Notes under the pieces: generated by a model
Seen by the model: the letters and a program-made list of their open reading frames with translations, nothing else
The model's database searches: none
What the model was told of the DNA's origin: nothing
Position numbers and translations under genes: made by a program
DNA from: Mayamaea pseudoterrestris
Lineage: Eukaryota
Length of the DNA stretch: 64,000 nt
Reading direction: 5' to 3'
NCBI GenBank assembly: GCA_027923505.1
Contig: BROI01000021.1
Location: 372,001 to 436,000 of the forward strand
In this document: positions 24,598 through 48,760 of the stretch, piece after piece
Layout: each line of letters begins with the position of its first letter
Numbering within the stretch: position 1 is the first letter of the stretch

Positions 24598-25097
24598 GGT
24601 GAAAGAGTTGATTCAATCAATCTATGTTGCTAGCGGGTGCTACCGGTAGTCGCCAACTACCAAGGAGCGGAATGTGGCGTGGATCTGTCAACATTCGTCA
24701 TGGTGGAACCGCGAAACGCAACATTGTATGCAATCACGGTGGGACATTCAATCACGGTATGACATTTTCATAATAAGCCCGTCATGACATGAGAAGGCTC
24801 GGACATATTTTTGCGTTCGAAACAGCTTTTCAAGTATAGCCTCTACAATCATACGTTAACGAATGAGACGCCCAAGAGCAGTTAGGTTCAACTCCGGACA
24901 AGCCGACGTAAGCATAACCGTCGTGGCTCGAGGCTGTTTGCGTCTGCATGTCTCGTTGCTCGTGGAGTCGCGATGATGATTGTCACACACACGCGCGTTT
25001 GTTTGCGCCAGCTCGTCCGCCTTGTTGCCTGCCTGTCTGCCTCTGAATGATTCCGTGAAACCTTTCAAACTTCAATATACAGTGTCGATTGTTTACC

Positions 25098-26489: not shown

Positions 26490-26793
26490 ATGCTACAAGT
26501 TACGTTAAGTTTTGTAATCATAACTGATGCTCTTTACGGAAAATGAAACGATAGTTCGGAAGCTGTATAGAAAACCTCAATTGACCCTTACGTTGTCGAA
26601 AGTTGCTCTTTCCAAATCAAACACCAGCGCTCTCAAACAAATTCTGCATATCTGTCGAATAATCGTCAATATGCGAATGAGCATACGTACCGGTACGCCC
26701 ATGTGCCCATGTGCGGCACGGCATCAAGAGAGGCAGACGGCCGTGCAAAACCTGTACCATTCCTCACGTAGATACGACCAAGAAAACGGGCCA

Positions 26794-27369: not shown

Positions 27370-27605
27370 CGTCGCGCACGTTGTGGTGTTGATATATAAG
27401 TATAAGAAAGTTACTGGAAGTACATGGAAGGCTGGAGTCTGGAGTTGTTTTGCTGCCAAAACAAAGGCTGTCGCGGCGCGCAAAGTGTCCTAGTGGTTAT
27501 TCACCGTATTAGAGCCGCTACGACATTGCGAACGATTGCCACTTACCGGTACATAAACACAAGCTGAACTGAGGGTTTGTGGCACTGCCCTGCCCCTCGC
27601 CTGTC

Positions 27606-28271
27606 AATGGTGCCAACACCATCAATCTGGCAGCACTACAAGATGGATTGCCTGCTGGACTCTCAGCAGACTGCAACATGATTGGCGAGAACATCTCACT
27701 ACGGTAGTCTCAGCCAGCAGATGCTGTCATTTTCAACTGCCCATACCTTGAGCCATGTGTATGCCCACATCAAGCCAGAATGGTGCTAACATCCTTACTT
27801 CAGGTGCGCTAAAAGTTGGATTGCCTGGCTGGTCTCTTGGTAGACTGCAATGTGATTGGTGACAACTTGTCACCATTCTCAGCCAGCAGATGCCGTGATT
27901 TCCAAATGCCCATACCTTGAGCCATGTGTATGCCCAAATCAAGCCAGAATGGTGCTAACATCCTTGTTTCAGGTGTGCTACAAAATGGATTGCCTGGCTG
28001 GTCCCTCAGTAGACTGCAATGTGATTGGTGACAACTTTTCACCAGTCTCAGCCAGCAGATGCCGTCATTTTCAAATGCCCATACCTTAAGCCATGTGTAT
28101 GCCCAAATCTAGCCACAATGGTGTTTACAACCTTGTTTCAGGTGTGCTACAAAATGCATTGCCTGGCTGGTCCCTGGGTAGACTGCAATGTGACTGGTGA
28201 GAAGTTCTCACCAGTCTCAGCAAGCAGATGCCATGATTTTCAAATGCCCATACCTTTAGCCATGTGTATGC
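27606..28271 (-). repeat. About 4 diverged copies of 169-bp satellite A, inverted relative to the main array
   Basis: Anchor GGTGCTAACA-like at 27609, 27782, 27951 and 28120 (period 169 after a first interval of 173). The sequence is the reverse complement of the main unit, including TGGTGACAA-N-TTGTCACCA. Confidence 0.9.
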
Positions 28272-28273
28272 TC

Positions 28274-28552
28274 GCCCCATGCCCTGGCCACCCAACAACC
28301 CAATGAGTGAGGCAAAACATGTCCAGGGTGTGCCATTGACACGAGGATGGACTCAAATGGTGCAAAACAAACTGCCTGAAGCCTACACCATGGAATGGTC
28401 TGCAGACTGGGTGTAACCAACACCCCAAATTATGGAATCATACCACTAAGATGCCCATGCCCTGGCCACCCAACAACCCAATGAGTCAGGCAAACATGTC
28501 CAGGGTGTGCCATTGACATGAGGATGGTCTCAAATGGTGCAGAAACAACTGC
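28274..28552. repeat. Linker direct repeat (third family), 178-bp spacing, about 1.6 copies
   Basis: CATGCCCTGGCCACCCAACAACCCAATGAGT...CATGTCCAGGGTGTGCCATTGACA...CAAATGGTGCA at 28278 and again at 28456. Confidence 0.85.
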
Positions 28553-28556
28553 TTGG

Positions 28557-31500
28557 ATCTTGTAGCCCAGCCTGAATAAGGATGTTGGCACCATTCTGGT
28601 GTATACTGGGCACCTACAGGGCTTGCTGTAGGGTTGTTTTAATGTCATGGCGTCTGCGGGCTGAGACTGGTGACAAGTTGTCACAAAATACATTACCATC
28701 CCCTGAGACACCAGCCAAGCTTACCATCTTGTAGCGCAGCCTCAATAATGATGTTGGCACCATTCTGGTATATTTTGGGCACCTACAGGGCTTGCTGTAG
28801 GGTTGTTTGAATGTCACGGCGTCTGCGGGCTGAGACTGGTGACAAGTTGTCACCAAATACATTGCCAACCCCTGAAACACCAGCCAGGCATACCATCTTG
28901 TAGCGCAGCCTATATAATGATGTTGGCACTATTTTGGCGTATTTTGGACACCTACAGGGCCTGCTGTAGGTGTGTTTGAATGTCATGGCATCTGCGGGCT
29001 GAGACTGGTGACAAGTTGTCACCAAATACTTTGCCAACCCCTGAGACACCAGCCAGGCATACCATCTTGTAGCGCAGCCTCAATAATGATGTGGGAACCA
29101 TTATCGTGTTTTTTGGGGCACCTACAGGGCTTGCTGTAGGTGCGTTTAATTGTCATGGCATCTGCGGGCCGAGACTGGTGACAAGTTGTCAACAAATACA
29201 TTGCCAACCCCTGAGACACCAGCCATGCATACCATCTTGTAGCGCAGCCTGAATAATAATGTTGGCACCATTCTGGTGTATTTTGGGCACCTACAGGGCT
29301 TGCTGTAGGTGCGTTTAATTGTCACGGCATCTGCGGTGCAAGACTGGTGACAAGTTGTCACCAAATACATTGCCAGCCCCTGAGATACCAACCAGGCATA
29401 CCATCTTGTAGCGCAGCTTGAATATTGATGTTGGCACCATTCTGGTGTATTTTGGGCACCTACAGGGCTTGCTATAGGGTTGTTTGAATGTCACGGCGTC
29501 TGCGTGCTGAGACTGGTGACAAGTTGTCACCAAATACATTGCCAACCCCTGAGACACCAGCCAGGCATACCATCTTGTAGCGCAGCCTGAATAATAATGT
29601 TGGCACCATTCTGGTGTATTTTGGGCACCTACAGGGCTTGCTGTAGGTGCGTTTAATTGTCACGGCATCTGCGGTGCAAGACTGGTGACAAGTTGTCACC
29701 AAATACATTGCCAGCCCCTGAGATACCAACCAGGCATACCATCTTGTAGCGCAGCTTGAATATTGATGTTGGCACCATTCTGGTGTATTTTGGGCACCTA
29801 CAGGGCTTGCTATAGGGTTGTTTGAATGTCACGGCGTCTGCGTGCTGAGACTGGTGACAAGTTGTCACCAAATACATTGCCAACCCCTGAGACACCAGCC
29901 AGGCATACCATCTTGGAGCGCAGGCTGAATAAGGATGTTGGCACCATTATAGTTTATTTTGTTCACCTACAGGGCCTGCTGTAGGTGCGTTTAATTGTCA
30001 TGGCATCTGCGGGCTGAGACTGGTGACAAGTTGTCACTAAATACATTGCCAACCCCTGAGACACCAGCCAAGCTTACCATCTTGTAGCGCAGCCTATATA
30101 ATGATGTTGGCACTATTTCGGCGTATTTTGGACACCTACAGGGCCTGCTGTAGGTGTGTTTGAATGTCACGGCGTCTGCAGGCTAAGACTGGTGACAAGT
30201 TGTCACCAAATACATTACCATCCCCTGAGACACCAGCCAAGCTTACCATCTTGTAGCGCAGCCGGAATAATGATGTTGGCACCATTCTGGTTTATTTTGG
30301 GCACCTACAGGGCTTGCTGTAGGGGCGTTTGAATGTCACGGCATCTGCAGGCTGACTGGTGGGTACTTCTCACCAGGCACATTGCCATCCTTTGAGACAC
30401 TAGCCAGGTATACCATCTTGTAGCGCAGCCTTTACAATGGTGTTGGCAACACTCTGGTGTCATTTGGGTGTATACATGGCCTGCTGTAGGTGCGTTTCAA
30501 TGTCACGGCATCTGTAGTCTGAGACTGGTTAGAACTTCTCACTAGTCACATTGCCATCCCTGAGACACCAGCCAGGCATACCATCTTGTAGCGCAGCCTG
30601 AATAATGATGTTGGCACCATTCTGGTGTAAATTGGTTACCTACAGGGCCTGCTGTAGGTGTGTTTGAATGTCATGGCATCTGCGGGCTGAGACTGGTGAC
30701 AAGTTGTCACCAAATACATTACCATCCCCTAAGACACAAGCCAAGCCTACCATCTTGTAGCGCAGCCTGAATAATGATGTTGGCACCATTCCAATGTCAA
30801 TTGGGTGTATACATGGCCTGCTCTAGGGGCGTTTGAATGTCACGGCATCTGCAGGCTGAGACTGGTGACAAGTTGTCACCAATATCATTGCTGTCCCCTG
30901 AGACAATAGCCAGGCATACCATCTTGTAGCGCAGCCTGAATGATGATGTTGGCACCAATCTGGTGTCATTTGGGTGTATACATGGCCTGCTGTAGGGGCG
31001 TTTGAATGTCACGGCATCTGCAGGCTGAGACTGGTGACAAGTTGTCACCAATATCATTGCCATCCCCTGAGACACTAGCCAGGTATACCATCTTGTAGCG
31101 TAGCCTGAATAATGATGTTGGCACCATTCTGGTGTAAACTGGGCACCTACAGGGCTTGCTGTAGGTGTGTTTGAATGTCATGGCATCTGCGGGCTGACAC
31201 TGGTGACAAGTTGTCACCAAATACATTGCCATCCCCTGAGACACCAGCCAGGCATACCATCTTGTAGCGCAGCCTGAATAGGAATGTTGACACTATTTTG
31301 GTGTAATTTGGGCACCTACAGGGCCTGCTGTAGGTGTGTTTGAATGTCATGGCATCTGGGGCTGAGACTGGTGACAAGTTGTCACCAAATACATTGCCAT
31401 CCCCTGAGACACCAGACAAGCCTACAATCTTGTAGCGCAGCCTGAATAATTATGTTGGCACCATTCTGGTGTAATTTTGGCACCTACAGGGCTTGCTGTA

Positions 31501-34500
31501 GGGATTGTTTGAATGTCACGGCGTCTGCAGGCCGAGACTGGTGACAAGTTGTCACCAAGTACATTGCCAACCCCTGAGACACCAGCCAGGCATACCATCT
31601 TGTAGCGCAGCCTGAATAATGATGTTGGCACCATTCTGGTGTAAATTGGGCACCTACAGGGCCTGCTGTAGGTGTGTCTGAATGTCATGGCATCTGTGGG
31701 CTGAGCCTGGTGACAAGTTGTCACCAAATGCATTGCCATTCCCTGAGACACCAGCCAGGCATAACATCTTGTAGCGAAATTTGAATAATAATGATGGCAC
31801 TTTTCTGGTGTGAATTGGGCACCTACAGGGCTTGCTGTAGGAGTGTTTGAATGTCACGGCGTCTGCGTGCTGAGACTGGTGACAAGTTGTCACCAAATAC
31901 ATTGCCAACCCCTGAGACACCAGCCAGGCATACCATCTTGTAGCGCAGCCTGAATAAGGATGTTGGCACTATTCTGGTGTAAATTGGGCACCTACAGGGC
32001 CTGCTGTAGGTGTGTTTGAATGTCATGGCATCTGCGGGCTGAGACTGGTGACAAGTTGTCACCAAATACATTGCCAACCCCTGAAACACCAGCCAGGCAT
32101 ACCATCTTGTAGCGCAGCCTGAATAATGATGTTGTCACCATTCTGGTGTAAACTGGGCACCTACAGGGCTTGCTGTAGGGTTGTTTGAATGTCACCACAT
32201 CTGCAGGGTGAGACTGATGACAAGTTGTCACCAAATACATTGCCATCCCCTGAGACACCAGCCAAGCTTACCATCTTGTATCTCAGCCTGAATAATGATG
32301 TTGGCACCATTCTGGTGTAAACTGGGCACCTACAGGGCTTGCTGTAGGGGCGTTTGAATGTCACGGCATCTGTGGGCTGAGACTGGTGACAAGTTGTCAC
32401 CAAATACATTGCCAACCCCTGAGACACCAGCCATGCATACCATCTTGTAGCGCAGCCTGAACAATAATGTTGGCACCATTCTGGTGTATTTTGGGCACCT
32501 ACAGGGCTTGCTGTAGGTGCGTTTAATTGTCATGGCATCTGCGGGCTGAGACTGGTGACAAGTTGTCACCAAATACATTGCCAACCCCTGAGACACCAGC
32601 CAGGAATACCATCTTGTAGCACAGCCGGAATAAGGATGTTGGCACTATTCTGGTGTAAATTGGGCACCTACAGGGCTTGCTGTAGGTGTGTTTGAATGTC
32701 ATGGCATCTGCGGGCTGACACTGGTGACAAGTTGTCACCAAATACATTGCCATCCCCTGAGACACCAGCCAGGCATACCATCTTGTAGCGCAGCCTGAAT
32801 AATGATGTTGGCACCATTCTGGTGTAAACTGGGCACCTACAGGGCTTGCTGTAGGGGCGTTTGAATGTCACCGCTACTGCGGGCTGAGACTGGTGACAAG
32901 TTGTCACCAAGTACATTGCCAACCCCTGAGACACCAGCCAGGCATACCATCTTGTAGCGCAGCCTGAATAATGATGTTGGCACCATTCTCGTGTAAACTG
33001 GGCACCTACAGGGCCTGCTGTAGGTGTGTTTGAATGTCATGGCATCTGCGGGCTGAGACTGGTGACAAGTTGTCACCAAATACTTTGCCAACCCCTGAGA
33101 CACCAGCCAGGCATACCATCTTGTAGCGCAGCCTCAATAAGGATGTTGGCACTTTTCTGGTGTGAATTGGGCACCTACAGGGCTTGCTGTAGGAGTGTTT
33201 GAATGTCATGGCATCTGCGGGCTGAGACTGGTGACAAGTTGTCACCAAATACATTGCCAACCCTTGAGACATTAGCCAGGCATACCATCTTGAAGCGCAG
33301 CTAGAATAAGGATGTTGGCACCATTCTGGTGTAAATTGGGCTCCTACAGGGCCTGCTGTAGGTGTGTTTGAATGTCATGGCATCTGCGGGCTGACACTGG
33401 TGACAAGTTGTCAACCAAATACATTGCCATCCCCTGAGACACCAGCCAGGCATACCATCTTGTAGCGCAGCCTGAATAATGATGTTGGCACCATTCTGGT
33501 GTAAACTGGGCACCTACAGGGCTTGCTGTAGGGGCGTTTGAATGTCACCGCTACTGCGGGCTGAGACTGGTGACAAGTTGTCACCAAGTACATTGCCAAC
33601 CCCTGAGACACCAGCCAGGCATACCATCTTGGAGCGCAGGCTGAATAAGGATGTTGGCAGCATTATCGTTTATTTTGTTCACCTACAGGGCCTGCTGTAG
33701 GTGTGTTTGAATGTCATGGCATCTGCGGGCTGAGACTGGTGACAAGTTGTCACCAAATACTTTGCCAACCCCTGAGACACCATCCAGGCATACCATCTTG
33801 TAGCGCAGCCTCAATAATGATGTTGGCACCATTATCGTGTATTTTGGGCACCTACAGGGCTTGCTGTAGGTGCGTTTAATTGTCATGGCATCTGCGGGCC
33901 GAGACTGGTGACAAGTTGTCACCAAATACATTGCCAACCCCTGAGACACCAGCCAGGCATACCATCTTGTAGCGCAGCCTCAATAAGGATGTTGGCACCA
34001 TTCTGGTGTAAACTGGGCACCTACAGGGCTTGCTGTAAGGGCGTTTGAATGTCACCGCATCTGCGGGCTGAGACTGGTGACAAGTTGTCACCAAATACAT
34101 TGCCAACCCCTGAGACACCAGCCAAGCTTACCATCTTGTAGCGCAGCCTCAATTATGATGTTGGCACTATTTCGGCGTATTTTGGACACCTACAGGGCCT
34201 GCTGTAGGTGTGTTTGAATGTCATGGCATCTGCGGGCTGACACTGGTGACAAGTTGTCACCAAATACATTGCCATCCCCTGAGACACCAGCCAGGCATAC
34301 CATCTTGTAGCGCAGCCTGAATAATGATGTTGGCACCATTCTGGTGTAAACTGGGCACCTACAGGGCTTGCTGTAGGTGCGTTTGAATGTCACCGCTACT
34401 GCGGGCTGAGACTGGTGACAAGTTGTCACCAAATACATTGCCAACCCCTGAGACACCAGCCAGGCATACCATCTTGTAGCGCAGCCTGAATAAGAATGTT

Positions 34501-35590
34501 GGCACTATTCTGGTGTAAATTGGGCACCTACAGGGCCTGCTGTAGGTGTGTTTGAATGTCATGGCGTCTGCGGGCTGAGACTGGTGACAAGTTGTCACCA
34601 AATACATTGCCATCCCCTGAGACACCAGCCAGGCAAACCATCTTGGAGCGCAGCCTGAATAAGGATGTTGTCACCATTCTGGTGTAAACTGGGAACCTAC
34701 AGGGCTTGCTGTAGGTGCGTTTAATTGTCACGGCATCTGCAGGCTGAGACTGGTGACAAGTTGTCACCAAATACATTGCCAGCCCCTGAGACACCAGCCA
34801 GGCATACCAACTTGAAGCGCAGCCGGAATAAGGATGTTGGCACAATTCTGGTCTAAATTGGGCACCTACAGGGCCTGCTGTAGGTGTGTTTGAATGTCAT
34901 GGCATCTGCGGGCTGAGACTGGTGACAAGTTGTCACCAAATACATTGCCATCCCCTGAGACACCAGCCAAGCTTACCATCTTGTAGAGCAGCTTGAATAA
35001 GGATGTTGGCACCATTCTGGTGTAATTTGCGCACCTACAGGGCTTGCTGTAGGTGCGTTAAATTGTCACGGCATCTGCGGGCTGAGACTGGTGACAAGTT
35101 GTCACCAAATACATTGCCAACCCCTGAGACACCAGCCAGGCATACCATCTTGTAGCGCAGCCGGAATAAGGATGTTGGCACTATTCTGGTGTAAATTGGG
35201 CACCTACAGGGCCTGCTGTAGGTGTGTCTGAATGTCATGGCATCTGCGGGCTGAGACTGGTGACAAGTTGTCACCAAATACATTGCCATCCCCTGAGACA
35301 CCAGCCAAGCTTACCATCTTGTAGCGCGGCCTCAATAATGATGTTGGCACCATTCTGGTGTAAACTGGGCACCTACAGGGCCTGCTGTAGGTGTGTCTGA
35401 ATGTCAAGGCATCTGCGGGCTGAGACTGGTGACAAGTTGTCACCAAATACATTGCCATCCCCTGAGACACCAGCCAGGCATACCATCTTGTAGCGCAGCC
35501 TCAATAATGATGTTGGCACCATTATCGTGTATTTTGGGCACCTACAGGGCTTGCTGTAGGTGCGTTTAATTGTCATGGCATCTGCGGGCT
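28557..35590 (+). repeat. Satellite A: tandem array of a 169-bp monomer, about 42 copies
   Basis: Unit CATCTTGTAGCGCAGCCTGAATAATGATGTTGGCACCATTCTGGTGTAAACTGGGCACCTACAGGGCTTGCTGTAGGTG...GAGACTGGTGACAAGTTGTCACCAAATACATTGCC...CCAGGCATAC. The ORF track repeats every 169 bp; about 51% GC by hand count of one unit. Confidence 0.97.
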
Positions 35591-38500
35591 CTTCAGGTCA
35601 GCAGCTTCTGTTGGCAGGTATTATGTGACTGCCTAACCTAGCAGTGGCAAACATCAGATCCCCACAACCTCTTTGTAAACTGGCTTGGGGCATGATCCAA
35701 GGACACAACTGGATAGTGTATAGTGCATTCACTATGTGCATTTGGCTCCTGCTTGTTGCCTGCCTCCAGATCCGCAGGATTTGCTGGTATTTACTATTCA
35801 ACTGCCGAACACCAACCTAGCAGTGGCAAACATGAAGTGCCCACACACTCTATGCGTACAGCCACTGTGCATGATCCAAGGGCACAAGACATACCTCCTT
35901 GGTGAATTTGGTTGGCGCATCAGCCTCCTGCTTGCCTTTTGCCTTCAGGTCAGCAGCGTCTGTTGGCAGGTACTATCTCACTGTCTATCCTAGCAGTGGC
36001 AAACATCAGATCCCCACAGCCTCTTTGTAAACTGGCTTGGGGCATGATCCAAGGTCACAAATTGATATTGTATAGTGCATTCACTTTGTGCATTTGCCTC
36101 CTGCTTGTTGCCTGCCTCCAGATCCGCAGGAGTTGCCGTTTTCAACTACCCAACTGCCCAACACCAACCTAGCAGTGGCAAACATGAAGTGCCCACACAC
36201 TCTATGCGTACAGCCACTGTGCATGATCCAAGGGCTCAAGACATACCTCCTTGGTGAATTTGGTTTGCGCATCATCCTCCTGCTTGTGTTGGCAGATACT
36301 ATGTGACTGCCTATCCTAGCAGTGGCAAACATCAGATCCCCACAACCTCTTTGTAAACTGGCTTGGGGCATGAACCTAGGTCACAAATGGATAGTGTATA
36401 GTGCATTCACTATGTGCATTTGCCTCCTGCTTGTTGCCTGCCTCCAGATCCGCAGGAGTTGCTGGTTTCTACTTCCCAACTGCCGAACACCAACCTAGCA
36501 GTGGCAAACATGAAATGCCCACACACTCTATGCGTACAGCCATTGTGCATGATCCAAGGGCACAAGACAAACCTCCTTGGTGAGTTTGGTTGGCGCATTA
36601 GCCTCCTGCTTGCCTTTTGCCTTCAGGTCAGCAGCTTCTCTTGGCAGGTACTATGTGACTGACTAACCTAGCAGTGGCAAACATCAGATCCCCACAACCT
36701 CTTTGTAAACTGGCTTCAGGCATGATCCAAGGTTACAAATGGATAGTGTATAGTGCATTCACTATGTGCATTTGCCTCCTGCTTGTTGCCTGCCTCCAGA
36801 TCCACAGGAGTTGCTGGTATGTACTACCCAACTTCCAAACACCAACCTAGTAGTGGCAAACATGAAGTGACCACACACTATATGCAAACAGCCACTGTGC
36901 ATGATCCAAGGGCTCAAGACATACCTCCTTGGTAAATTTGGTTTGCGTATCAGCTTCCTGCTTGCCTTTTGCCTTCAGGTCAGCAGCGTTTGTTGGCAGG
37001 TACTATGTGACTGCCTATCCTAGCAGTGGCAAACATCAGATCCCCACAACCTCTTTGTAAACTGGCTTGGGGCATGATCCAAGGTCACAAATAGATATTG
37101 TATATTGCATTCATTATGTGCATTTGCCTCCTGCATGTTGCCTGCCTCCAGACCTGCAGGTGTTGCAGGTTTCTACTACCCAACTGCCGAACCAACCTAG
37201 CAGTGGCAAACATGAAGTGTCCACACACTATATGCAAACAGCCACTGTGCATGATCCAACGACACAAGACATACCTCCTTGGTGAATTTTGTTTGCGCAT
37301 CAGCCTCCTGCTTGCCGAATGCCTTCAGGTCAGCAGCGTCTGTTGGCAGGTACTATGTGACTGCCTAACCTAGCAGTGGCAAACATCAGATCTCCACAAC
37401 CTCTTTGTAAACTGGCTTGGGGCATGATCCAAGGTCACAAATTGATATTGTATATTGCATTCATTTTGTGCATTTGCCTCCTGCTTGTTGCCTGCCTCCA
37501 GATCCACTGGAGTTGCTGGTATGTACTACCAAACTGCCAAACACCAACCTAGGAGTGGTAAACATGAAATGCCCACACTCTATGCGTACAGCCACTGTGC
37601 ATGATCCAAGGGCACAAGACATACCTCCTTGGTGAATTTATTTGGCACATCAGCCTCCTGCTTGCCTTTTGCCTTCAGGTCAGCAGCTTCTGTTGGCAGG
37701 TACTATGTGACTGCCTAACCTAGCAGGGGCAAACATCAGATCCCCACAACCTCTTTGTAAACTGGCTTGGGGCATGATCCAAGGTCACAAATTGATATTG
37801 TAGGTGCATTCACTATGTGCATTTGCCTCCTGTTGCCTGCCTCCAGATCCGCAGGAGGGTTTTAATAACCCGCAGTGGCAAACATCGAAATGCCCACACA
37901 CTCTATGCTTGAACAAGCTTCACTGTGCATGATCCAAGGGCACAAGACATACCTCCTTGGTGATTTTGGTTTGCGCATCAGCTTCCTGCTTGCCTTTTGC
38001 CTTCAGGTCAGCAGCTTCTGTTGGCGGGTACTATGTGACTGCCTAACCTAGCAGTGGCAAACATCAGATCCCCACAACCTCTTTGGAAACTAGCTTGGGG
38101 CATGATCCAAGGTCACAAATTGACTTTATTTTTTTTTATTTGAAGTGCATTCATTTTGTGCATTTGCCTCCCTGCTTGTTGCCTGCCTCCAGATCCGCAG
38201 GGAAGTTGCTGGTATGCTACTCACACAACTTGCCGAACACCAAACTAGCAGTGGCAAACATGAAGCAGCCCACACACTCTATGGCATGCCCCTGTGCATG
38301 ATCCAAGGGCACAAGACAGACCTCCCTTGGGGAATTTGGGTCTGGGCGCATCAGCCTCCTGGGGCTTGCCCTTTTGGGCCTTCAGGTCAGCAGCGCGTCT
38401 GTTGGTAGGTACTATGTGACTGCCTATCCCACAGCAGTAAGCAAACACCACATCAGGAATCCCCACAACCTCTTTGGAAACTGGTTTTGGGGTATGATCT

Positions 38501-41500
38501 AAGGTCACAAATAAATAAAGTATAGTGCATTCGCTATGTGCATTTGCCTCCTGCTTTGTTGCCTGCCTCCCAGATCCGCAGGTGGAGTTGCTGGTTTTCC
38601 TACTACCCAACTGCTAAACACCAACCTAGCAGTATGAACATGAAATGACCACACACTCTATGCGTACAGCCACTGTGATGATCCAAGGGCACAAGACATA
38701 TCTCCTTGGTGAATTTGATTGGCTTGCATCAGCCTCCTGCTTGCCGTATTGCCTTAGCAGGTCAGCAGCTTCTGTTGGCATGGGTACTATGTGACTGCCT
38801 AACCTAGTGCTTAAACATCAGATCCCCACAACCTCTTTGTAAACTGGCTTGGGGATGATCCAAGGACACAAACGGATAGTGTATAGTGCATTCACTATGT
38901 GCATTTGGCTCCTGCTTGTTGCCCGCTGTCTCCAGATCCGCAGGATTTGCTGGTATCTACTACCCAACTGCCGAACACCAAACTAGCAGTGGCAAACATG
39001 AAGTGCCCACACACTCTATGCGTACAGCCACTGTGCATGATCCAAGGGCACAAGACACCTCCTTGGTGAATTTGGTTGGCGCATCAGCCTCCTGCTTGCC
39101 TTTTGCCTTTCAGGTCAGCAGCGTGTCGTTGGTAGGTACTCTCACTGCCAAACCTAGCAGTGGCAAACATCAGATCCCCACAGCCTCTTTGTAAACTGGC
39201 TTGGGGCATGATCCAAGGTCACAATTGGATAATGTATAGTGCATTTTCACTTTGTGCATTTGCCTCGCCCGCGGAGCCACACCACAACCGCCTTTTATTT
39301 TTTGGCGCATCAGCCTCCTGCTTGCCGTTTTTCCTTCAGGTCAGCCGCGTCTGTTGGCTAGGTACTATGTGACTGCCTATCCTAGCAGTGGCAAACATCA
39401 GGATCCCCGCAACCTCTTTGTAAACTGGCTTGGGGTGCAGACCCAAGGTCACAAATGGATAGTGTATAGTGCATTCACTATGTGCATTTGCCTCCTGCTT
39501 GTTGCCTGCCTCCAGATCCCGCAGGAGTTGCTGGTTTGCACTTCCCAACTGCAAACACACCAACCTAGCAGTGGCAAACATGAAAATGTCCACACACTCT
39601 ATGCGTACAGCCACTGTGCATGATCAAAGGGCACAAGACAAACCTCCTTGGTGAGTTTGGTTGGCGATCAGCCTCACCTGCTTGTCTTGGCAGGTACCAT
39701 GGACTGCCTAATCTTAGCAGTGGCAAAACATCAGATCCCCACAACCTCTTTATGTAAACTGGCTTGGGGCATGAACCAAGGTCACAAATGGATAGTGTAT
39801 AGTGCATTCACGTTGTGCATTTGCCTCCCCTGCTTGTTGCCTGCCTCCAGATCCGCAGGTTTTGCTGGTATGCACTACCCAACTGCCAAACCAACCTAGC
39901 AGTGGCAAACATGAAATGCCCACACACTCTATGCGTACAGCCATTGTGCATGATCCAAGGGCACAAGACAAACCTCCTTGGTGAATTTGGTTGGCGCATT
40001 AGCCTCCTGCTTGCCTTTTGCCTTCAGGTCAGCAGCTGTGTTGGCAGGTACTTTTGTGACTGCCTATCCTAGCAGTGGCAAACATCCAGATCCCCACAAG
40101 CTCTTCTAAACTGGCTTGGGGCATGATCCAAGGTCACGAAATGGATAGTGTATAGTGCATTTCACTTTGTGCATTTGCCTCTGCTGTCTGCCTGCCTCCA
40201 GAATCCTAAGGAGTTGCTGGTTTCTACTACCCAACTGCCAAAACCAACCTAGCAGTGGCAAACATGAAGTGTTCCACAACTCTATGCGAACAGCCACCCA
40301 ATGCGCCAGATCCAAGGACACAAGACATACCTCCTTGGTGAATTTGGTTGGCGCATCAGCCTCCTGCTTTTGCCGGATGCCGTCAGGTCAGCAGCGTCTG
40401 TTGGCAGGTACTATGTGACTGCCTAACCTAGCAGTGGCAAACATCAGATCTCCACAACCTCTTTGTAAACTGGCTTGGGGCATGATCCAAGGTCACAACT
40501 GGATAGTGTATAGTGCATTCACTATGTGCATTTGCCTCCTGCTTGTTGCCTGTCTCCAGATCCGCAGGAGTTGCTGGTTTCTACTACCCAACTGCCAAAC
40601 ACCAAACTAGCAGTGGCAAACATGAAGTGCCCACACACTCTATGCGTACAGCCACTGTGCATGATCCAAGGACACAAGACATACCTCCTTGGTGAATTTC
40701 GTTTGCGCATCAGCTTCCTGCTTGCCTTTGGCCTTCAGGTCAGCAGCGTTTGTTGGCAGGTACTATGTGACTGCCTATCCTAGCAGTGGCAAACATCAGA
40801 TCCCCACAATCTCTTTGTAAACTGGCTTGGGGCATGATCCAAGGTCACAAATAAATAATGTATATTGCATTGGTTATGTGCATTTGCCTCCTGCTTGTTG
40901 CCTGCCTCCAGATCCGTAGGAGTTGCTGGTTTCTACTACCCAACTGCCAAACACCAACCTAGCAGTGGCAAACATGAAGTGCCCACACACTATATGCATA
41001 CAGCCACTGTGCATGATCCAAGGGCACAAGACATACCTACTTGGTGAATTTGGTTTGCGCATCAGCCTCCTGCTTGCCTTATTCCTTTAGGTGAGCAGCT
41101 TCTGTTGGTAGGTACTATGTGACTGCCTAACCTAGCAGTGGTAAACATCAGACCCCCACCAGCTTGTTGCCTGCCTTCAGATTCGCAGGAGTTGTTGGTA
41201 TGTACTATCCAACTGCTGAACACCAACCTAGCGGTGGCAAACATGAAGTGTCCACACACTCTATGCAAACAGCCACTTTGCATGATCCAAGGGCACAAGA
41301 CATACCTCCTTGGTGAATTTGGTTTGTGCATCAGCCTCCTGCATGCTGTATCCCTTCACGTCAGCAGCTTCTGTTGGCAGGGACTATGTGACTGCCTATC
41401 CTAGCAGTGGCAAACATCAGATCCCCACAACCTCTTTGTAAACTGGCTTGGGGCATGATCCAAGGTCACAAATGGATATTGTATAATGCATTCACTTTGT

Positions 41501-44500
41501 GCATTTGCCTGCAGCTTGTTGCCTGCCTCCAGATCCACAGGAGTTGCTGGTATGTACTACCCAACTTCCAAACACCACCCTAGTAGTGGCAAACATGAAG
41601 TGACCACACACGCTATGCATACAGCCACTGTGCATGATCCAAGGGCTCAAGACATACCTCCTTGGTAAATTTGGTTTGCGTATCAGCTTCCTGCTTGCCT
41701 TTTGCCTTCAGGTCAGCAGCGTTTGTTGGCAGGTACTATGTGACTGCCTATCCTAGCAGTGGCAAACATCAGATCCCCACAACCTCTTTGTAAACTGGCT
41801 TGGGGCATGATCCAAGGTCACAAATAGATATTGTATATTGCATTCATTATGTGCATTTGCCTCCTGCATGTTGCCTGCCTCCAGACCTGCAGGAGTTGCC
41901 GGTTTCTACTACCCAACTGCCGAACCAACCTAGCAGTGGCAAACATGAAGTGTCCACACACTATATGCAAACAGCCACTGTGCATGATCCAAGGGCACAA
42001 GACATACCTCCTTGGTGAGTTTGGTTTGCGCATCAGCTTCCTGCTTGCCTTTTGCCTTCAGGTCAGCAGCTTCTGTTGGCGGGTACTATGTGACTGCCTA
42101 ACCTAGCAGTGGCAAACATCAGATCCCCACAACCTCTTTGTAAACTAGCTTGGGGCATGATCCAAGGTCACAAATTGATATTGTATAGTGCATTCACTTT
42201 GTGCATTTGCCTCCTGCTTGTTGCCTGCCTCCAGATCCGCAGGAATGCTGGTATGTACTACCCAACTGCCGAACACCAACCTAGCAGTGGCAAACATGAA
42301 GTGACCACACACTGTACGCGTACAGCCCTTGAGCATGATCCAAGGGCACAAGACATACCTCCTTGGGGAACTTGGTTGGTGCATCAGCCTCCTGCTTGCC
42401 TTTTGCCTTCAGGTCAGCAGCATCTGTTGGTAGGTACTATGTGACTGCCTAACCTAGCAGTGGCAAACATCAGATCCCCACAACCTCTTTGTAAACTGGC
42501 TTGGGGCATGATCCAAGGACACAAATTGATATTGTATAGTGCATTCACTTTGTGCATTTGCCTCCTGCTTGTTGCCTGCCTCCAGATCTGCAGGAGTTGC
42601 TGGTATGTACTACCCAACAGCCGAACACCAACCTAGCAGTGGCAAACATGAAGTGCCCACACACTCTATGCGTACAGCCACTGTGCATGATCCAAGGGCA
42701 CAAGACATACCTCCTTGGTGAATTTATTTGGCACATCAGCCTCCTGCTTGCCTTTTGCCTTCAGGTCAGCAGCTTCTGTTGGCAGGTACTATGTGACTGC
42801 CTAACCTAGCAGTGGCAAACATACATCAGATCCCCACAACCTCTTTGTAAACTGGCTTGGGGCATGATCCAAGGTCACAAATTGATATTGTATAGTGCAT
42901 TCACTTTGTGCATTTGCCTCCTGCTTGTTGCCTGCCTCCAGATCCGCAGGAGTTGCTGGTATGTACTACCCAACTGCCGAACACCAACCTAGCAGTGGCA
43001 AACATCAAGTGACCACACACTCTATGCAAACAGCCACTGTGCATGATCCAAGGGCACAAGACATACCTCCTTGGTGAATTTGATTGGCGCATCAGCCTCC
43101 TGCTTGCCGTATGCCTTCAGGTCAGCAGCTTCTGTTGGCAGGTACTATGTGACTGCCTAACCTAGCAGTGGCAAACATCAGATCCCCACAACCTCTTTGT
43201 AAACTGGCTTGGGGCATGATCCAAGGTCACAAATGGATATTGTATAGTGCATTCACTTTGTGCATTTGCCTCCTGCTTGTTGCCTGCCTCCAGATCCGCA
43301 GGATTTGCTGGTATGCACTACCCAACTGCCGAACACCAACCTAGCGGTGGCAAACATGAAATGTCCACACACTCTATGCGTACAGCCACTGTGCATGATC
43401 CAAGGGCACAAGACATACCTCCTTGGTGAATTTGGTTTGCGCATCAGCCTCCTGCTTGCCTTTTGCCTTCAGGTCAGCAGCTTCTCTTGGCAGGTACTAT
43501 GTGACTGCCTATCCTAGCAGTGGCAAACATCAGATCCCCACAACCTCTTTGTAAACTGGCTTGGGGCATGATCCAAGGACACAACTGGATAGTGTATAGT
43601 GCATTCACTATGTGCGTTTGCCTCCTGCTTGTTGCCTGCCTCCAGATCCGCAGGAGTTGCTGGTATTTACTATTCAACTGCCAAACACCAACCTAGCAGT
43701 GGCAAACATGAAATGCCCACACACTCTATGCGTACAGCCACTGTGCATGATCCAAGGGCACAAGACATACCTCCTTGGTGAATTTGGTTTGCGCATCAGC
43801 CTCCTGCTTGCCTTTTGCCTTCAGGTCAGCAGCGTCTGTTGGCAGGTACTATGTGACTGCCTATCCTAGCAGTGGCAAACATCAGATCCCCACAACCTCT
43901 TTGTAAACTGGCTTGGGGCATGATCCAAGGTCACAAATGGATAGTGTATAGTGCATTCACTTTGTGCATTTGCCTCCTGCTTGTTGCCTGCCTCCAGATC
44001 CGCAGGAGTTGCTGGTATTTACTATTCAACTGCCAAACACCAACCTAGCAGTGGCAAACATGAAGTGCCCACACACTCTATGCGTACAGCCACTGTGCAT
44101 GATCCAAGGGCTCAAGACATACCTCCTTGGTGAATGTGGCTTGCGCATCAGCCTCCTGCTTGCCTTTTGCCTTCAGGTCAGCAGCGTCTGTTGGCAGGTA
44201 CTATGTGACTGCCTATCCTAGCAGTGGCAAACATCAGATCCCCACAACCTCTTTGTAAACTGGCTTGGGGCATGATCCAAGGTCACAAATTGATATTGTA
44301 TAGTGCATTCACTTTGTGCATTTGCCTCCTGCTTGTTGCCTGCCTCCAGATCCGCAGGAGTTGCTGGTTTCTACTACCCAACTGCCAAACACCAACCTAG
44401 CAGTGGCAAACATGAAGTGCCCACACACTCTATGCGTACAGCCACTGTGCATGATCCAAGGGCTCAAGACATACCTCCTTGGTGAATTTGGTTTGCGCAT

Positions 44501-47500
44501 CAGCCTCCTGCTTGCCTTTTGCCTTCAGGTCAGCAGCTTCTGTTGGCAGGTACTATGTGACTGCCTAACCTAGCAGTGGCAAACATCAGATCCCCACAAC
44601 CTCTTTGTAAACTGGCTTGGGGCATGATCCAAGGTCACAAATGGATAGTGTATAGTGCATTCACTATGTGCATTTGCCTCCTGCTTGTTGCCTGCCTCCA
44701 GATCCGCAGGAGTTGCTGGTTTCTACTACCCAACTGCCAAACACCAAACTAGCAGTGGCAAACATGAAATGCCCACACACTCTATGCGTACAGCCACTGT
44801 GCATGATCCAAGGGCACAAGACATACCTCCTTGGTGAATTTTGTTTGCGCATCAGACTCCTGCTTGCCGTATTCCTTCAGGTCAGCAGCGTCTGTTGGCA
44901 GATACTATGTGACTGCCTATCCTAGCAGTGGCAAACATCAGATCCCCACAACCTCTTTGTAAACCTACAAGGCATATGTATAGTGCATTCACTATGTGCA
45001 TTTGCCTCCTGCTTGTTGCCTGGTGTCTTGGCATGCACACTTGGTTTCGCCTTTTGCCTTCAGGTCAGCAGCTTCTCTTGGCAGGTACTATGTGACTGAC
45101 TAACCTAGCAGTGGCAAACATCAGATCCCCACAACCTCTTTGTAAACTGGCTTGGGGCATGATCCAAGGTCACAAATGGATATTGTATAGTGCATTCACT
45201 TTGTGCATTTGCCTCCTGCTTGTTGCCTGCCTCCAGATCCGCAGGAGTTGCTGGTATTTACTATTCAACTGCCAAACACCAACCTAGCAGTGGCAAACAT
45301 GAAGTGCCCACACACTCTATGCGTACAGCCACTGTGCATGATCCAAGGGCTCAAGACATACCTCCTTGGTGAATTTGGTTGGCGCATCAGCCTCCTGCTT
45401 GCCTTTTGCCTTCAGGTCAGCAGCGTCTGTTGGCAGGTACTATGTGACTGCCTATCCTAGCAGTGGCAAACATCAGATCCCCACAACCTCTTTGTAAACT
45501 GGCTTGGGGCATGAACCTAGGTCACAAATGGACAGTGAATAGTGCATTCACTTTGTGCATTTGCCTCCTGCTTGTTGCCTGCCTCCAGATCCGCAGGAGT
45601 TGCTGGTATTTACTATTCAACTGCCAAACACCAACCTAGCGGTGGCAAACATGAAATGTCCACACACTCTATGTGTACAGCCACTGTGCATGATCCAAGG
45701 GCACAAGACATACCTCCTTGGTGAATGTGGCTTGCGCATCAGCCTCCTGCTTGCCTTTTGCCTTCAGGTCAGCAGCGTTTGTTGGCAGGTACTATGTGAC
45801 TGCCTATCCTAGCAGTGGCAAACATCAGATCCCCACAACCTCTTTGTAAACTGGCTTGGGGCATGATCCAAGGTCACAAATGGATAGTGTATAGTGCATT
45901 CACTATGTGCATTTGCCTCCTGCTTGTTGCCTGTCTCCAGATCCGCAGGATTTGCTGGTATTTACTATTCAACTGCCAAACACCAACCTAGCAGTGGCAA
46001 ACATGAAGTGCCCACACACTCTATGCGTAAAGCCACTGTGCATGATCCAAGGGCTCAAGACATACCTCCTTGGTGAATTTTGTTTGCGCATCAGCCTCCT
46101 GCTTGCCTTTTGCCTTCAGGTCAGCAGCTTCTCTTGGCAGATACTATGTGACTGCCTATCTAGCAGTGGCAAACATCAGATCCCTACAACCTCTTTGTAA
46201 ACTGGCTTGGGGCATGATCCAAGGTCACAAATAATTATTGTATAGTGCATTCACTTTGTGCATTTGCCTCCTGCTTGTTGCCTGCCTCCAGATCCGCAGG
46301 AGTTGCTGGTTTCTACTACCCAACTGCCAAACACCAAACTAGCAGTGGCAAACATGAAGTGCCCACACACTCTATGCGTACAGCCACTGTGCATGATCCA
46401 AGGGCTCTAGACATACCTCCTTGGTGAATTTTGTTTGCGCACCAGCCTCCTGCTTGCCGTATTCCTTCAGGTCAGCAGCGTCTGTTGGCAAATACTATGT
46501 GACTGCCAATCCTAGCAGTGGCAAACATCAGATCCCCACAACCTCTTTGTAAACTGGCTTGGGGCATTATACAAGGTCACAAATTATTATTGTATAGTGC
46601 ATTCACTTTGTGCATTTGCCTCCTGCTTGTTGCCTGCCTCCAGATCCGCAGGAGTTGCTGGTATTTACTATTCAACTGCCAAACACCAACCTAGCGGTGG
46701 CAAACATGAAATGTCCACACACTCTATGTGTACAGCCACTGTGCATGATCCAAGGGCACAAGACATACCTCCTTGGTGAATTTTGTTTGCGCATCAGCCT
46801 CCTGCTTGCCTTTTGCCTTCATGTCAGCAGCGTCTGTTGGTAGGTACTTTGTGACTGCCTAACCTAGCAGTGGCAAACATCAGATCCCTACAACCTTTTT
46901 GTAAACTGGCTTGGGGCATGATCCAAGGTCACAAACTGATATTGTATAGTGCATTCACTTTGTGCATTTGCCTCCTGCTTGTTGCCTGCCTCCAGATCCG
47001 CAGGAGTTGCTGGTTTCTACTACCCAACTGCCAAACACCAACCTAGCAGTGACAAACATGAAGTGCCCACACACTATATGCGTACAGCCACTGTGCATGA
47101 TCCAAGGGCACAAGGCATACCTCCTTGGTGAATTTGGTTGGCGCATCAGCCTCCTGCTTGCCTTTTGCCTTCAGGTCAGCAGCTTCTGTTGGTAGGTACT
47201 ATGTGACTGCCTAACCTAGCAGTGGCAAACATCAGATCCCCACAGCCTCTTTGTTAACTGGCTCGGGGCATGATCCAAGGACACAAACTGATATTGTATA
47301 GTGCATTCACTTTGTGCTTTTGCCTCCTGCTTGTTGCCTGCCTCCAGATCCGCATGAGTTGCTGGTATCTACTACCCAACTGCCAAACACCAACCTAGCA
47401 GTGACAAACATGAAGTGTCCACACACTATATGAAAACAGCCACTGTGCATGATCCAAGGACACAAGACATACCTCCTTGGTGAATTTGTTTGCGCATCAG

Positions 47501-48760
47501 CCTCCTGCTTGCCGGATGCCTTCAGGTCAGCAGCTTCTGTTGGCAGGTACTATCTGACTGTCTATCCTAGCAGTGGCAAACATCAGATCCCCACAACCTC
47601 TTTGTAAACTGGCTTGGGGCATGACCCAAGGTCACAAATGCATAGTGTATAGTGCATTTACTATGTGCATTTGCCTCCTGCTTGTTGCCTGTCTCCAGAT
47701 CCGCAGGATTTGCTGGTATGCACTACCCAACTGCCGAACACTGACCTAGCGGCGGCAAACATGAAATGTCCACATACTCTATGCGTACAGCCACTGTGCA
47801 TGATCCAAAGGCTCTAGACATACCTCCTTGGTGAATTTTGTTTGCGCATCAGCCTCCTGCTTGCCGTATTCCTTCAGGTCAGCAGCTTCTGTTGGCAGAT
47901 ACTATGTGACTGCCTATCCTAGCAGTGGCTAACATCAGATCCCCACAACCTCTTGTAAACTGGCTTGGGGCATGATCCAAGGTCACAAATGGATAGTGTA
48001 TATTGCATTGGTTATGTGCATTTGCCTCCTGCTTGTTGCCTGCCTCCAGATCCGCAGGATTTGCTGGTATTTACTATTCAACTGCCGAACACCAACCTAG
48101 CGGTGGCAAACATGAAATGTCCACATACTCTATGTGTACAGCCACTGTGCATGATCCAAAGGCTCTAGACATACCTCCTTGGTAAATTTGGTTTGCGCAT
48201 CAGCTTCCTGCTTGCCTTTTGCCTTCAGGTCAGCAGCGTCTGTTGGCAGGTACTATGTGACTGCCTATCCTAGCAGTGGCAAACATCAGATCCCCACAAC
48301 CTCTTTGTAAACTGGCTTGGGGCATTATACAAGGTCACAAATTATTATTGTATAGTGCATTCACTTTGTGCATTTGCCTCCTGCTTGTTGCCTGCCTCCA
48401 GATCCGCAGGATTTGCTGGTATGCACTACCCAACTGCCGAACACCAACCTAGCGGTGGCAAACATGAAGTGTCCACACACTATATGCAAACAGCCACTGT
48501 GCATGATCCAAGGACACAAGACATACCTCCTTGGTGAATTTGGTTTGCGCATCAGCCTCCTGCTTGCCGGATGCCTTCAGGTCAGCAGCGTCTGTTGGCA
48601 GGTACTATGTGACTGCCTAACCTAGCAGTGGCATCAGATCCCCACAACCTCTTTGTAAACTGGCTTTGGGTATGATCCAAGGACACATCTGGATAGTGCA
48701 TAGTGCATTCACTATGTGCATTTGCCTCCTGCTTGTTCCCTGCCTCCAGATCCGCAGGAT
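35591..48760 (+). repeat. Satellite B: tandem array of a 352-bp dimer (179-bp + 173-bp related monomers), about 37 copies
   Basis: Anchor CCTAGCAGTGGCAAACAT at 43513, 43692 and 43865. Both halves share CATGATCCAAGG and GCCTCCTGCTTG; the ORF track repeats every 352 bp. Confidence 0.97.

What the first reader, a model, noticed from the sequence alone, without database searches (positions are those of the whole stretch)
27606..48760. 21-kb bipartite satellite island of nucleosome-sized monomers: candidate satellite-type centromere in a diatom-like genome
Seen: elsewhere in the window genes lie tens to hundreds of bp apart, but here ~21 kb has no credible gene. It consists only of tandem repeats with monomers of 169, 178 and 173/179 bp, at roughly 50% GC. 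Established: 150-180 bp monomers, dimeric higher-order repeats and dyad symmetry are hallmarks of animal and plant centromeric satellites. CENH3-mapped Phaeodactylum tricornutum centromeres are instead short, unique, low-GC sequences. Inference: this may be a regional satellite centromere (or heterochromatin knob) of a kind not expected in this lineage, with two adjacent families that could mark separate core and pericentric domains.
Basis: partly seen in the sequence, partly recalled or inferred. Interest (0 to 1): 0.88.

Follow-up and report, generated by a model that had tools for sequence, protein, structure and literature searches.

The report
High-copy satellite DNA island in a diatom
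A 21-kb gene-free block in the freshwater diatom Mayamaea pseudoterrestris consists of nucleosome-sized tandem repeats that are very abundant elsewhere in its genome and look long-methylated, which makes them an untested candidate for heterochromatin or centromere DNA in a group where none has been described.

Summary
Window 27606-48759 holds only tandem repeats:
- an inverted, diverged relic of a 169-bp family (A);
- 1.6 copies of a 178-bp family (C);
- 41.6 copies of A;
- about 37 dimers of 352 bp (173+179; family B).

There is no gene, RNA gene or transposon, and GC is about 0.49-0.50, like the flanks. A flanking gene identifies the organism as the raphid diatom Mayamaea pseudoterrestris.

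New here:
- In public read sets, consensus-like satellite words have summed contig depths of 10^5-10^6 against about 125 on the flanks. About 60,000 of 555,000 contigs of one run fit the island. The families are therefore far more abundant than this locus explains, roughly 10^3-10^4 copies.
- All four components are strongly CpG-depleted (o/e 0.11-0.30 against 1.11) with TG/CA excess. This is the footprint of long-term cytosine methylation.
- The best-conserved part of A is a 9+9-bp palindrome.

Best reading: an interstitial outpost of genome-wide, heterochromatin-type satellite DNA that the published annotation does not list ("Satellites 0"). The centromere idea is neither shown nor excluded (about 0.15). 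The block lacks the low-GC signature of known diatom centromeres, and its per-chromosome distribution could not be tested.

The parts
27606..28271 (-). Inverted, diverged relic of satellite family A (about 3.9 units of 169 bp, 74% identical to the A consensus)
   Evidence: TRF. Reverse-strand BLAST hits at 74-80%. A 668-column alignment to the tandem consensus at 0.74 identity. Parts of it sit at single-copy depth in run X1 (contig at 28123-28206, depth 158.8, 0 mismatches).
28276..28556 (+). Satellite family C, period 178 bp, about 1.6 copies here
   Evidence: The two copies align over 104 columns, score 87. The highest summed word depth of the stretch is at 28490: 1,478,296 in X1. Loose ends at 28274 and 28454 read like the end of a preceding C unit, so C is tandem elsewhere. 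CpG o/e is 0.11.
28557..35590 (+). Satellite array A: 41 full and 1 partial monomer of 169 bp, head to tail
   Evidence: Mean pairwise identity is 0.892, with no lag structure from 1 to 12 (0.885-0.902). Three identical monomer pairs (4=6, 5=7, 25=29) mark recent local duplications. CpG o/e is 0.30.
32891..32909 (.). Example of the conserved palindromic box of family A (9-bp arms around one central base); one per monomer
   Evidence: Inverted repeat I3. It is the most conserved 19-column window of the monomer: 36 of 41 monomers are exact, against a median of 13 over all windows. A variant in the inverted relic changes both arms and keeps the symmetry.
35591..48759 (+). Satellite array B: about 37 dimers of 352 bp (173 + 179 bp halves), abutting A with no spacer; a few truncated or irregular units
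   Evidence: Twenty-six full dimers have mean pairwise identity 0.923, and the most consensus-like lie at 43353-44761. A conserved 19-bp box is shared by both halves, exact in 25 of 26 dimers against a median of 12. CpG o/e is 0.21.
26794..27483 (-). Left flanking gene (SYS1 family), transcribed away from the island; its start codon lies about 120 bp from the first repeat
   Evidence: Pfam PF09801, E 6.7e-36. An X1 contig at single-copy depth (178) runs from unique flank into the first repeat at 27605-27658.
49158..49679 (+). Right flanking ORF (no Pfam family), transcribed away from the island; unique, CpG-normal DNA starts at 48760

Best explanation
The block is an interstitial island of classical satellite DNA in the nuclear genome of Mayamaea pseudoterrestris. 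Three unrelated families of nucleosome-sized repeats (A 169 bp; B 173+179 = 352-bp dimer; C 178 bp) sit between two divergently transcribed housekeeping genes. All three belong to families that are high-copy elsewhere in the genome, roughly 10^3-10^4 monomers.

Shown: tandem structure, absence of coding or RNA-gene content, excess word depth, CpG depletion with TG/CA excess, and a conserved palindrome.

Inferred:
- The arrays grow and shrink by unequal exchange and local duplication. Identical monomer pairs, one inverted relic and irregular units point to this.
- They have long been CpG-methylated and are packaged as silent, heterochromatin-like chromatin, one nucleosome per monomer.
- This particular locus is a minor outpost, not the main seat, of the families, because the most abundant family C has only 1.6 copies here.

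No cellular function is demonstrated at this locus. A structural role (heterochromatin or centromere-associated) of the families as a whole remains possible.
For: Structure.

Non-coding: no ORF >=150 aa, stops in all frames of the tandem consensus, and 0 Rfam and 0 tRNA hits.

Real locus, not noise: X1 short-read contigs carrying private variants of this array match at single-copy-like depth. Examples are 30332-30421 (depth 108.7, 0 mismatches), 33610-33696 (depth 142.1) and 28123-28206 (depth 158.8). A depth-178 contig crosses the left junction.

High copy: X1 flank bins are 103-151. Summed depth at consensus-like positions is 1,478,296 (position 28490, C), 1,347,213 (32247, A) and 339,034 (42950, B). 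X1 laid 60,387 of 555,133 contigs, although the laid satellite stretch holds only 10,209 distinct 31-mers. The same pattern appears in a second study's run, X2: flank about 1-7, satellites up to 847,609.

Methylation footprint: CpG o/e is 0.30 (A), 0.21 (B), 0.14 (inverted A) and 0.11 (C), against 1.11 in both flanks. TG and CA o/e are 1.44-2.76 against 1.16-1.17. Polymorphic CpG columns segregate as CG/TG/CA.

Published annotation: 'Satellites 0' and 'Unclassified' 2,255,301 bp (supplementary table text of PMC9724779).
Against: - The tool states that summed contig depth is no copy number. Overlapping short contigs can inflate it about 2-3 fold, so the copy estimates are order-of-magnitude only.
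- Where the other copies lie is unknown. They could be one island per chromosome, which would favour the centromere rival.
- The nanopore read N50 was 8.6 kb, shorter than the 21-kb island. Array length and the link between the two flanks are therefore not independently verified, and the true array here could be longer.
- CpG poverty could partly be a founder effect of three CpG-poor monomers rather than decay in place. The segregating CG/TG/CA columns argue for ongoing decay.
- No chromatin or methylation data were available.
Confidence: 0.6

Rival explanations
1. Satellite-type regional centromere. This island is the CENH3-bound centromere of its chromosome, or lies directly beside it. Similar A/B(/C) islands sit once on every chromosome, and the conserved palindrome in A (non-B DNA or a dimeric binding site) helps specify it.
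For: - The monomers are nucleosome-sized and there is one dimeric higher-order unit.
- It is the only gene-free 21 kb in an otherwise dense window.
- Several satellite families adjoin one another.
- The families are among the most abundant sequences of the read sets.
- Rough arithmetic fits. About 10^3 B dimers and 10^3-10^4 A monomers, spread over a few tens of chromosomes, give islands of the size seen here. This is inference, and the chromosome number is not known (PMC9724779 passage).
- A's dyad symmetry is its most conserved part and shows one symmetric double change.
- In Fistulifera solaris only 8 chromosome pairs showed clear low-GC peaks at similar positions, and only 16 sequences in those 8 pairs were proposed as putative centromeres. 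Low-GC centromeres are therefore not demonstrated for all raphid diatom chromosomes (passages of 10.1101/2021.11.10.468027).
Against: - Every diatom centromere mapped or proposed so far is short, unique and low in GC: <33% over >=500 bp in P. tricornutum, and 36-42% in F. solaris.
- Here GC is 0.49-0.50, and 0 of 640 100-bp windows of the whole window are <=32% GC.
- A has no homogenised core: 0.892 mean identity and a flat lag profile.
- The most abundant family, C, has only 1.6 copies here.
- Expressed-type housekeeping genes start about 120-400 bp from both edges, and none of the 27 flank ORFs tested has a transposon domain.
- No stramenopile centromere described in the papers read is satellite-based.
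Confidence: 0.15
2. Orphan array of repeats whose main home is inside another high-copy unit. Families A, B and C would be sub-repeats carried by Ty1/Copia-type retrotransposons or by the rDNA intergenic spacer. That would explain their abundance, and this island would be a locally amplified escapee with no role of its own.
For: - Ty1/Copia makes up 10.79% of the assembly with 1,259 elements.
- Satellites often arise from retrotransposon-borne tandem repeats (PMC7004042; title and start of abstract only).
- The copy numbers inferred could be reached by a few units per element.
- C is present here only as 1.6 copies wedged between two A blocks.
Against: - No transposon or rRNA sequence lies in or next to the island: Rfam gives 0 hits, and there is no RT/integrase domain in the 27 flank ORFs.
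- The loose ends listed for C read into another C unit, that is, tandem arrays rather than element bodies. Only 23 of 327 loose ends were shown.
Confidence: 0.1
3. Assembly artefact. The island is a collapsed, expanded or chimeric join made by the long-read assembler through shared repeats, so the 21-kb size, the A/B abutment or the linkage of the two flanks is not real.
For: - The nanopore read N50 of 8.6 kb is well below 21 kb.
- There are many alternative joints between monomers in short-read contigs: 15 shown and 203 not shown.
- The families are high-copy, which is the classic cause of misjoins.
Against: - The left junction and several private monomer variants are found in short-read contigs at single-copy-like depth, in a run of a different study and organism label from X2. 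It is not shown to be independent of the assembly's own sample, and the tool warns that the best DNA holder may be that sample.
- Monomers differ by about 11%, enough to anchor long reads.
- The GC and dinucleotide make-up of the arrays is uniform and not read-error-like.
- The right junction and the A/B junction were not checked individually.
Confidence: 0.1

Closest known systems
Centromeric satellites of animals and plants (human alpha satellite about 171 bp, Arabidopsis about 178 bp; recalled, not from a call)
   Same: Head-to-tail non-coding arrays, monomers of about one nucleosome, a dimeric higher-order unit in B, a short conserved box and dyad symmetry inside the monomer, high genomic copy number and CpG decay.
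   Different: Only 21 kb at this locus, with genes directly on both sides. GC equals the genome average rather than being AT-rich. Family A lacks a homogenised higher-order core. No CENH3 evidence. The lineage has no known satellite centromere.
Phaeodactylum tricornutum centromeres (Diner et al., preprint 10.1101/096016, passages read)
   Same: Intergenic position in a compact raphid diatom genome.
   Different: Those centromeres are short, essentially repeat-free and defined by <33% GC over >=500 bp. This block is 21 kb of pure repeats at 49-50% GC with no low-GC window.
PpSat1/PpSat2 satellite families of the oomycete Phytophthora parasitica (PMC7290008, passages read)
   Same: Satellite families in a stramenopile that went unnoticed until long-read data. 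Abundant, with complex array types, and proposed but not shown to be centromeric.
   Different: Different lineage and sequences. Oomycete centromeres were later described as transposon-rich (PMC7082073; title and start of abstract only).
Euchromatic satellite-like tandem repeats of Tribolium castaneum, about 170 bp (PMC4675708; title and start of abstract only)
   Same: Arrays with satellite-typical monomer length embedded among genes in chromosome arms. This is the closest model for what this particular locus looks like.
   Different: Insect genome. Whether the Mayamaea families also have large heterochromatic blocks is unknown.
Subtelomeric 98-bp satellite of Ectocarpus (PMC11541908, passages read)
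   Same: A satellite family in a stramenopile with a defined chromosomal address.
   Different: That repeat carries telomere motifs and lies beside telomeres. Here there is no TTAGGG array and only one isolated CCCTAA in the island, with >=27 kb and >=15 kb of genes on either side.

Membership tests
Satellite DNA | Long head-to-tail tandem arrays of a 100-500-bp monomer | tested here: met
   41.6 x 169 bp; about 37 x 352 bp (173+179); 1.6 x 178 bp.
Satellite DNA | Non-coding, not an RNA-gene array | tested here: met
   No ORF >=150 aa. Stops in all six frames of the tandem consensus. Rfam 0 hits and tRNA 0. ORF translations find no annotated Mayamaea protein: 1 unnamed hit of 4 candidates for A, and 0 of 10 for B.
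Satellite DNA | Hundreds to thousands of copies in the genome | tested here: met
   summed contig word depth is 3.4x10^5 to 1.5x10^6 at consensus-like positions, against about 125 on the flanks in X1. The same pattern appears in X2. This is semi-quantitative only, because the tool warns that depth is not copy number.
Satellite DNA | Heterochromatic packaging (H3K9me / 5mC) | not testable with these tools
   Indirect only: CpG o/e 0.11-0.30 with TG/CA excess, against 1.11 in the flanks.
Regional satellite centromere | CENH3/CENP-A nucleosomes on the array | not testable with these tools
   No ChIP data are available.
Regional satellite centromere | One such locus per chromosome | not testable with these tools
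   No whole genome is held. The metagenome scan gave chance hits only: 60 of 60 loci have a single match, and the longest extension is 40 bp.
Regional satellite centromere | Recently homogenised core or higher-order repeats | tested here: inconclusive
   A: not met (0.892 mean identity, flat lag profile). B: a dimeric unit, with a more uniform stretch at 43353-44761 and best-match identities of 0.93-0.99.
Diatom (P. tricornutum-type) centromere | >=500 bp at <33% GC, with clustered 100-bp windows <=32% GC | tested here: not met
   0 of 640 100-bp windows are <=32% GC. The minimum 500-bp GC is 0.412, and it lies at 22851, outside the island.
Diatom (P. tricornutum-type) centromere | Unique, essentially repeat-free sequence | tested here: not met
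   The block is entirely tandem repeats.
Subtelomeric satellite | Adjacent to telomere repeats or a chromosome end | tested here: not met
   No tandem TTAGGG/CCCTAA in the window. Genes lie on both sides. The position of the window within the 669-kb contig is not known.
rDNA / 5S / snRNA / tRNA gene array | The unit contains a recognisable RNA gene | tested here: not met
   Rfam gathering-threshold scan of the whole window: 0 hits. ARAGORN: 0.

The most novel reading that the evidence does not exclude
Mayamaea pseudoterrestris has replaced the short AT-rich centromeres known from other diatoms by satellite-type regional centromeres. Composite A/B(/C) islands like this one would sit once per chromosome and bind CENH3, with the conserved palindrome of family A acting as the structural or protein-binding determinant. 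This would be the first satellite centromere in diatoms, and in the stramenopiles covered by the papers read here. It would also be a case of rapid centromere-type turnover within raphid diatoms.
Probability: 0.15. Interest if true: 0.85.

Novelty: new member of a known kind. Interest (0 to 1): 0.5.

Why it matters
Diatom genomes are usually described as transposon-rich but poor in satellites. The only mapped diatom centromeres are short, unique, low-GC stretches, and that rule underlies diatom episome and artificial-chromosome design.

This 30-Mb diatom genome appears to hold nucleosome-sized satellite families at 10^3-10^4 copies, possibly megabases in total. The published annotation counts them as 'unclassified' and lists zero satellites. 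If that holds, three things follow:
- Assembly size, repeat content and contig breaks in this and related diatoms need re-reading.
- The organism becomes a simple system for studying repeat methylation and heterochromatin next to active genes only 120-400 bp away.
- It provides a concrete, cheaply testable candidate for a second kind of diatom centromere.

The six literature searches found no paper describing satellite DNA families or satellite centromeres in diatoms. The library lacks most subscription journals.

Tried and rejected
- Whole-genome mapping was not possible, because no genome is held for this window.
- Metagenome scan with a 20-base box of family A: 60 loci, each with a single match. 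BLAST of the A, B and C sequences against them extended at most 40 bp at 85%. These are chance hits, and no relative's array was found.
- Protein route to other loci. The translation of the longest A frame found 1 protein of 4 candidates (P0121, 208 aa, 76% identity, unnamed, single-member cluster from a catalogue labelled SRC). It matches only the A region of the window. It hints at an A-like array in an environmental sample, but says nothing about loci in this genome. A B frame found 0 of 10 candidates. No annotated Mayamaea protein overlaps such repeats in the length ranges searched.
- RNA: no RNA holder was listed for the satellite stretch. This is no evidence on expression.
- Runs X4 and X5 (other organism labels, same study as X1) hold about 10% of the satellite words. 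When laid, they show almost no flank (0-2.8) and library-adapter sequence as loose ends, and X4 shares X1's flank variants at 25484, 25537 and 25568. I read this as carry-over from the X1 library, not as a satellite shared between species.
- RNA-gene array, coding repeat protein, telomere-associated repeat and P. tricornutum-type low-GC centromere were all tested and rejected.
- Homology between families A and B was rejected, with local alignment scores of 11 and 18 only.
- Dyad symmetry in B was rejected.
- The batch DNA fold failed on a size limit. It was redone as single folds.


Full report
**1. What is there**

From left to right the island consists of four parts.

- **Inverted relic of family A, 27606-28271.** About 3.9 units of the 169-bp family lie in reverse orientation. 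They are only 74-80% like the main array.
- **Family C, 28276-28556.** This is 1.6 copies of a third unit with a 178-bp period.
- **Array A, 28557-35590.** It has 41 full monomers and one partial monomer of 169 bp, head to tail.
- **Array B, 35591-48759.** It starts at the very next base. It holds about 37 dimers of 352 bp, with a few truncated units, all in one orientation.

The two halves of the B dimer (173 and 179 bp) are 66% alike, while whole dimers are on average 92% alike. B is therefore a true dimeric higher-order repeat. A and B share no detectable similarity. Neither family occurs anywhere else in the 64-kb window.

**2. It is not a gene or an RNA-gene array**

- No ORF of 150 aa or more lies between 27483 and 49158.
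- The longest stop-to-stop frame inside is 143 aa.
- Tandem consensus units have stops in all six frames.
- Rfam and tRNA scans of the whole window give nothing.
- There are no telomere repeats.

**3. Organism and setting**

A flanking cactin ORF is 100% identical to an NCBI protein of Mayamaea pseudoterrestris on a 669,208-bp contig.

The genome paper (PMC9724779; passages and supplementary-table text) reports:
- a 30.6-Mb nanopore-based assembly in 41 contigs;
- 2.97% heterozygosity;
- a nanopore read N50 of 8.6 kb;
- a RepeatMasker table with 'Satellites 0' and 2.26 Mb 'Unclassified'.

Its main text has no occurrence of 'centromer', 'satellite' or 'telomer'.

The flanks are ordinary dense eukaryotic genes. 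On the left are SYS1, an ankyrin protein, an SMC/Rad50-like ATPase, a poly(A)-polymerase-like protein and a WD40 protein. On the right are a HEAT/importin-like protein, cactin, a zeta-toxin-like kinase, a choline-transporter-like protein and myosin. Sixteen of the 27 ORFs tested have a Pfam match, and none has a transposon domain.

The two nearest genes point away from the island. Unique DNA between them and the repeats measures only about 120 bp on the left and about 400 bp on the right.

**4. Copy number: the main new result**

One search for public runs holding the satellite stretch returned seven coded runs from two studies. Four of them were laid on window 24000-43999. All four are contig sets, and the tool warns that summed contig depth is not a copy number.

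Even so, the contrast is very large.

*Run X1*
- The five flank bins have depths of 103-151.
- Positions where the window carries consensus-like words have summed depths of 1,478,296 (family C, 28490), 1,347,213 (A, 32247) and 339,034 (B, 42950).
- Positions with private variants have depths of 57-505.
- Individual contigs that match private variants exactly have single-copy-like depth (108.7, 142.1, 158.8).
- 60,387 of the 555,133 contigs fit the stretch, although the satellite part laid contains only 10,209 distinct 31-mers.

*Run X2*
- This run comes from another study.
- It shows the same pattern: flank about 1-7, satellites up to 847,609.

Allowing a 2-3-fold inflation from overlapping short contigs, I read this as roughly 10^3-10^4 monomers for A and C and about 10^3 dimers for B. 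The window itself holds 45 A monomers, 1.6 C units and 37 B dimers.

So the island is a real, specific locus: its private variants and its left junction are seen at single-copy-like depth. But the families live mostly elsewhere, or the arrays are under-assembled.

The small shares in runs X4 and X5 look like library carry-over from X1. They show adapter sequence as loose ends, almost no flank, and X1's own flank variants.

**5. Methylation footprint**

| Component | CpG observed/expected |
|---|---|
| Both flanks | 1.11 |
| Array A | 0.30 |
| Array B | 0.21 |
| Inverted A relic | 0.14 |
| Family C | 0.11 |

TG and CA are in excess in the repeats (1.44-2.76, against 1.16-1.17 in the flanks). 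The columns that still carry CpG in some monomers carry TG or CA in the others.

This is the classical trace of long-term cytosine methylation confined to the repeats. That diatoms methylate repeats is recalled knowledge, not from a call.

**6. Conserved boxes**

The most conserved 19-column window of the A monomer is a palindrome with 9-bp arms. It is exact in 36 of 41 monomers, against a median of 13 over all windows (arms shown).

A variant in the old inverted relic changes one base in each arm and keeps the symmetry. That is a single event, so it is anecdotal.

A second 9-bp-arm dyad lies upstream in the monomer. The A monomer folds better than shuffles as single-stranded DNA (z -2.71).

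B has a 19-bp box shared by both halves. It is exact in 25 of 26 dimers, against a median of 12. B shows no significant dyad symmetry.

**7. Array dynamics**

- A monomers are 0.892 identical on average, with no periodicity at lags 1-12.
- Three identical monomer pairs mark recent two-unit or local duplications.
- Monomers 10-11 are the most diverged, at 0.82-0.86 to the consensus.
- B is most uniform around 43.3-44.8 kb and more indel-ridden on its left side.

This is what unequal exchange without strong homogenisation produces.

**8. Centromere or not**

*For*
- The monomers are nucleosome-sized.
- Several families adjoin one another.
- The block is the only gene desert in the window.
- The families are abundant.
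- A carries a conserved dyad.
- The copy numbers, divided over a few tens of chromosomes, would give islands of about this size.

*Against*
- P. tricornutum centromeres are short, repeat-free and <33% GC over >=500 bp, and foreign low-GC DNA suffices (passages of 10.1101/096016).
- F. solaris candidates are 1.4-2 kb at 36-42% GC and lack highly repeated elements (passages of 10.1101/2021.11.10.468027).
- Other stramenopile centromeres in the papers read are transposon-based.
- This block is 49-50% GC, and the whole window has no 100-bp window at or below 32% GC.
- A lacks a homogenised core.
- The most abundant family is nearly absent here.
- Genes abut both edges.

The decisive tests are per-chromosome distribution, CENH3 mapping and Hi-C. 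None could be run. I put the centromere reading at about 0.15.

**9. Caveats**

- The depth figures are sums over contigs, not read counts.
- The right junction and the A/B junction were not individually verified.
- With an 8.6-kb read N50, the assembled length of a 21-kb array is uncertain.
- Supplementary figures of PMC9724779 (for example the k-mer spectrum) were not seen as images.

**10. Verdict**

The block is satellite DNA with a heterochromatin-type signature, belonging to genome-wide high-copy families that the published annotation did not recognise. Its role as a centromere is open and, on present evidence, unlikely but well worth a cheap test.

Noticed in passing
window 939-1135: A short 42/84-bp tandem repeat (3.6 and 2.3 copies, 83-86% matches). 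It lies just upstream of, and overlaps, the start of a histidine-phosphatase-family ORF (1093-2592, +). It is unrelated to the satellite families.
   Followed up: no
window 57453-58226 (-): An ORF with a clear zeta-toxin/AAA_33 kinase-fold domain (PF06414, E 1.2e-17) in a diatom nuclear gene neighbourhood. It is probably a eukaryotic P-loop kinase of that fold rather than a toxin-antitoxin module.
   Followed up: no
window 19440-21749 and 22031-22801 (+): Two consecutive ORFs carry the N-terminal (AAA_23/SMC_N) and a later SMC_N segment of a Rad50/SMC-like ATPase. They are probably one gene split by an intron or a frame break.
   Followed up: no
window 28557-35590, minus strand: The tandem consensus of family A has only 3 stops per 507 nt on the minus strand, against 10 on the plus strand. 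This gives many overlapping 100-143-aa open frames. An unnamed 208-aa catalogue protein (P0121) is a read-through of an A-like array. It probably reflects composition (low TA), not coding.
   Followed up: partly
window 24000-27660 versus runs X1 and X2: Short-read contigs of both runs differ from the assembly at about 1% of flank positions and share most of these differences. This is consistent with the other haplotype of a 2.97%-heterozygous diploid, or with a very close strain.
   Followed up: no
runs X4 and X5 laid on window 27335-43999: Traces of the satellites, with library-adapter loose ends, appear in runs labelled as other organisms of the same study. This looks like cross-library carry-over, in which only the highest-copy sequences survive the contig filter.
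   Followed up: partly
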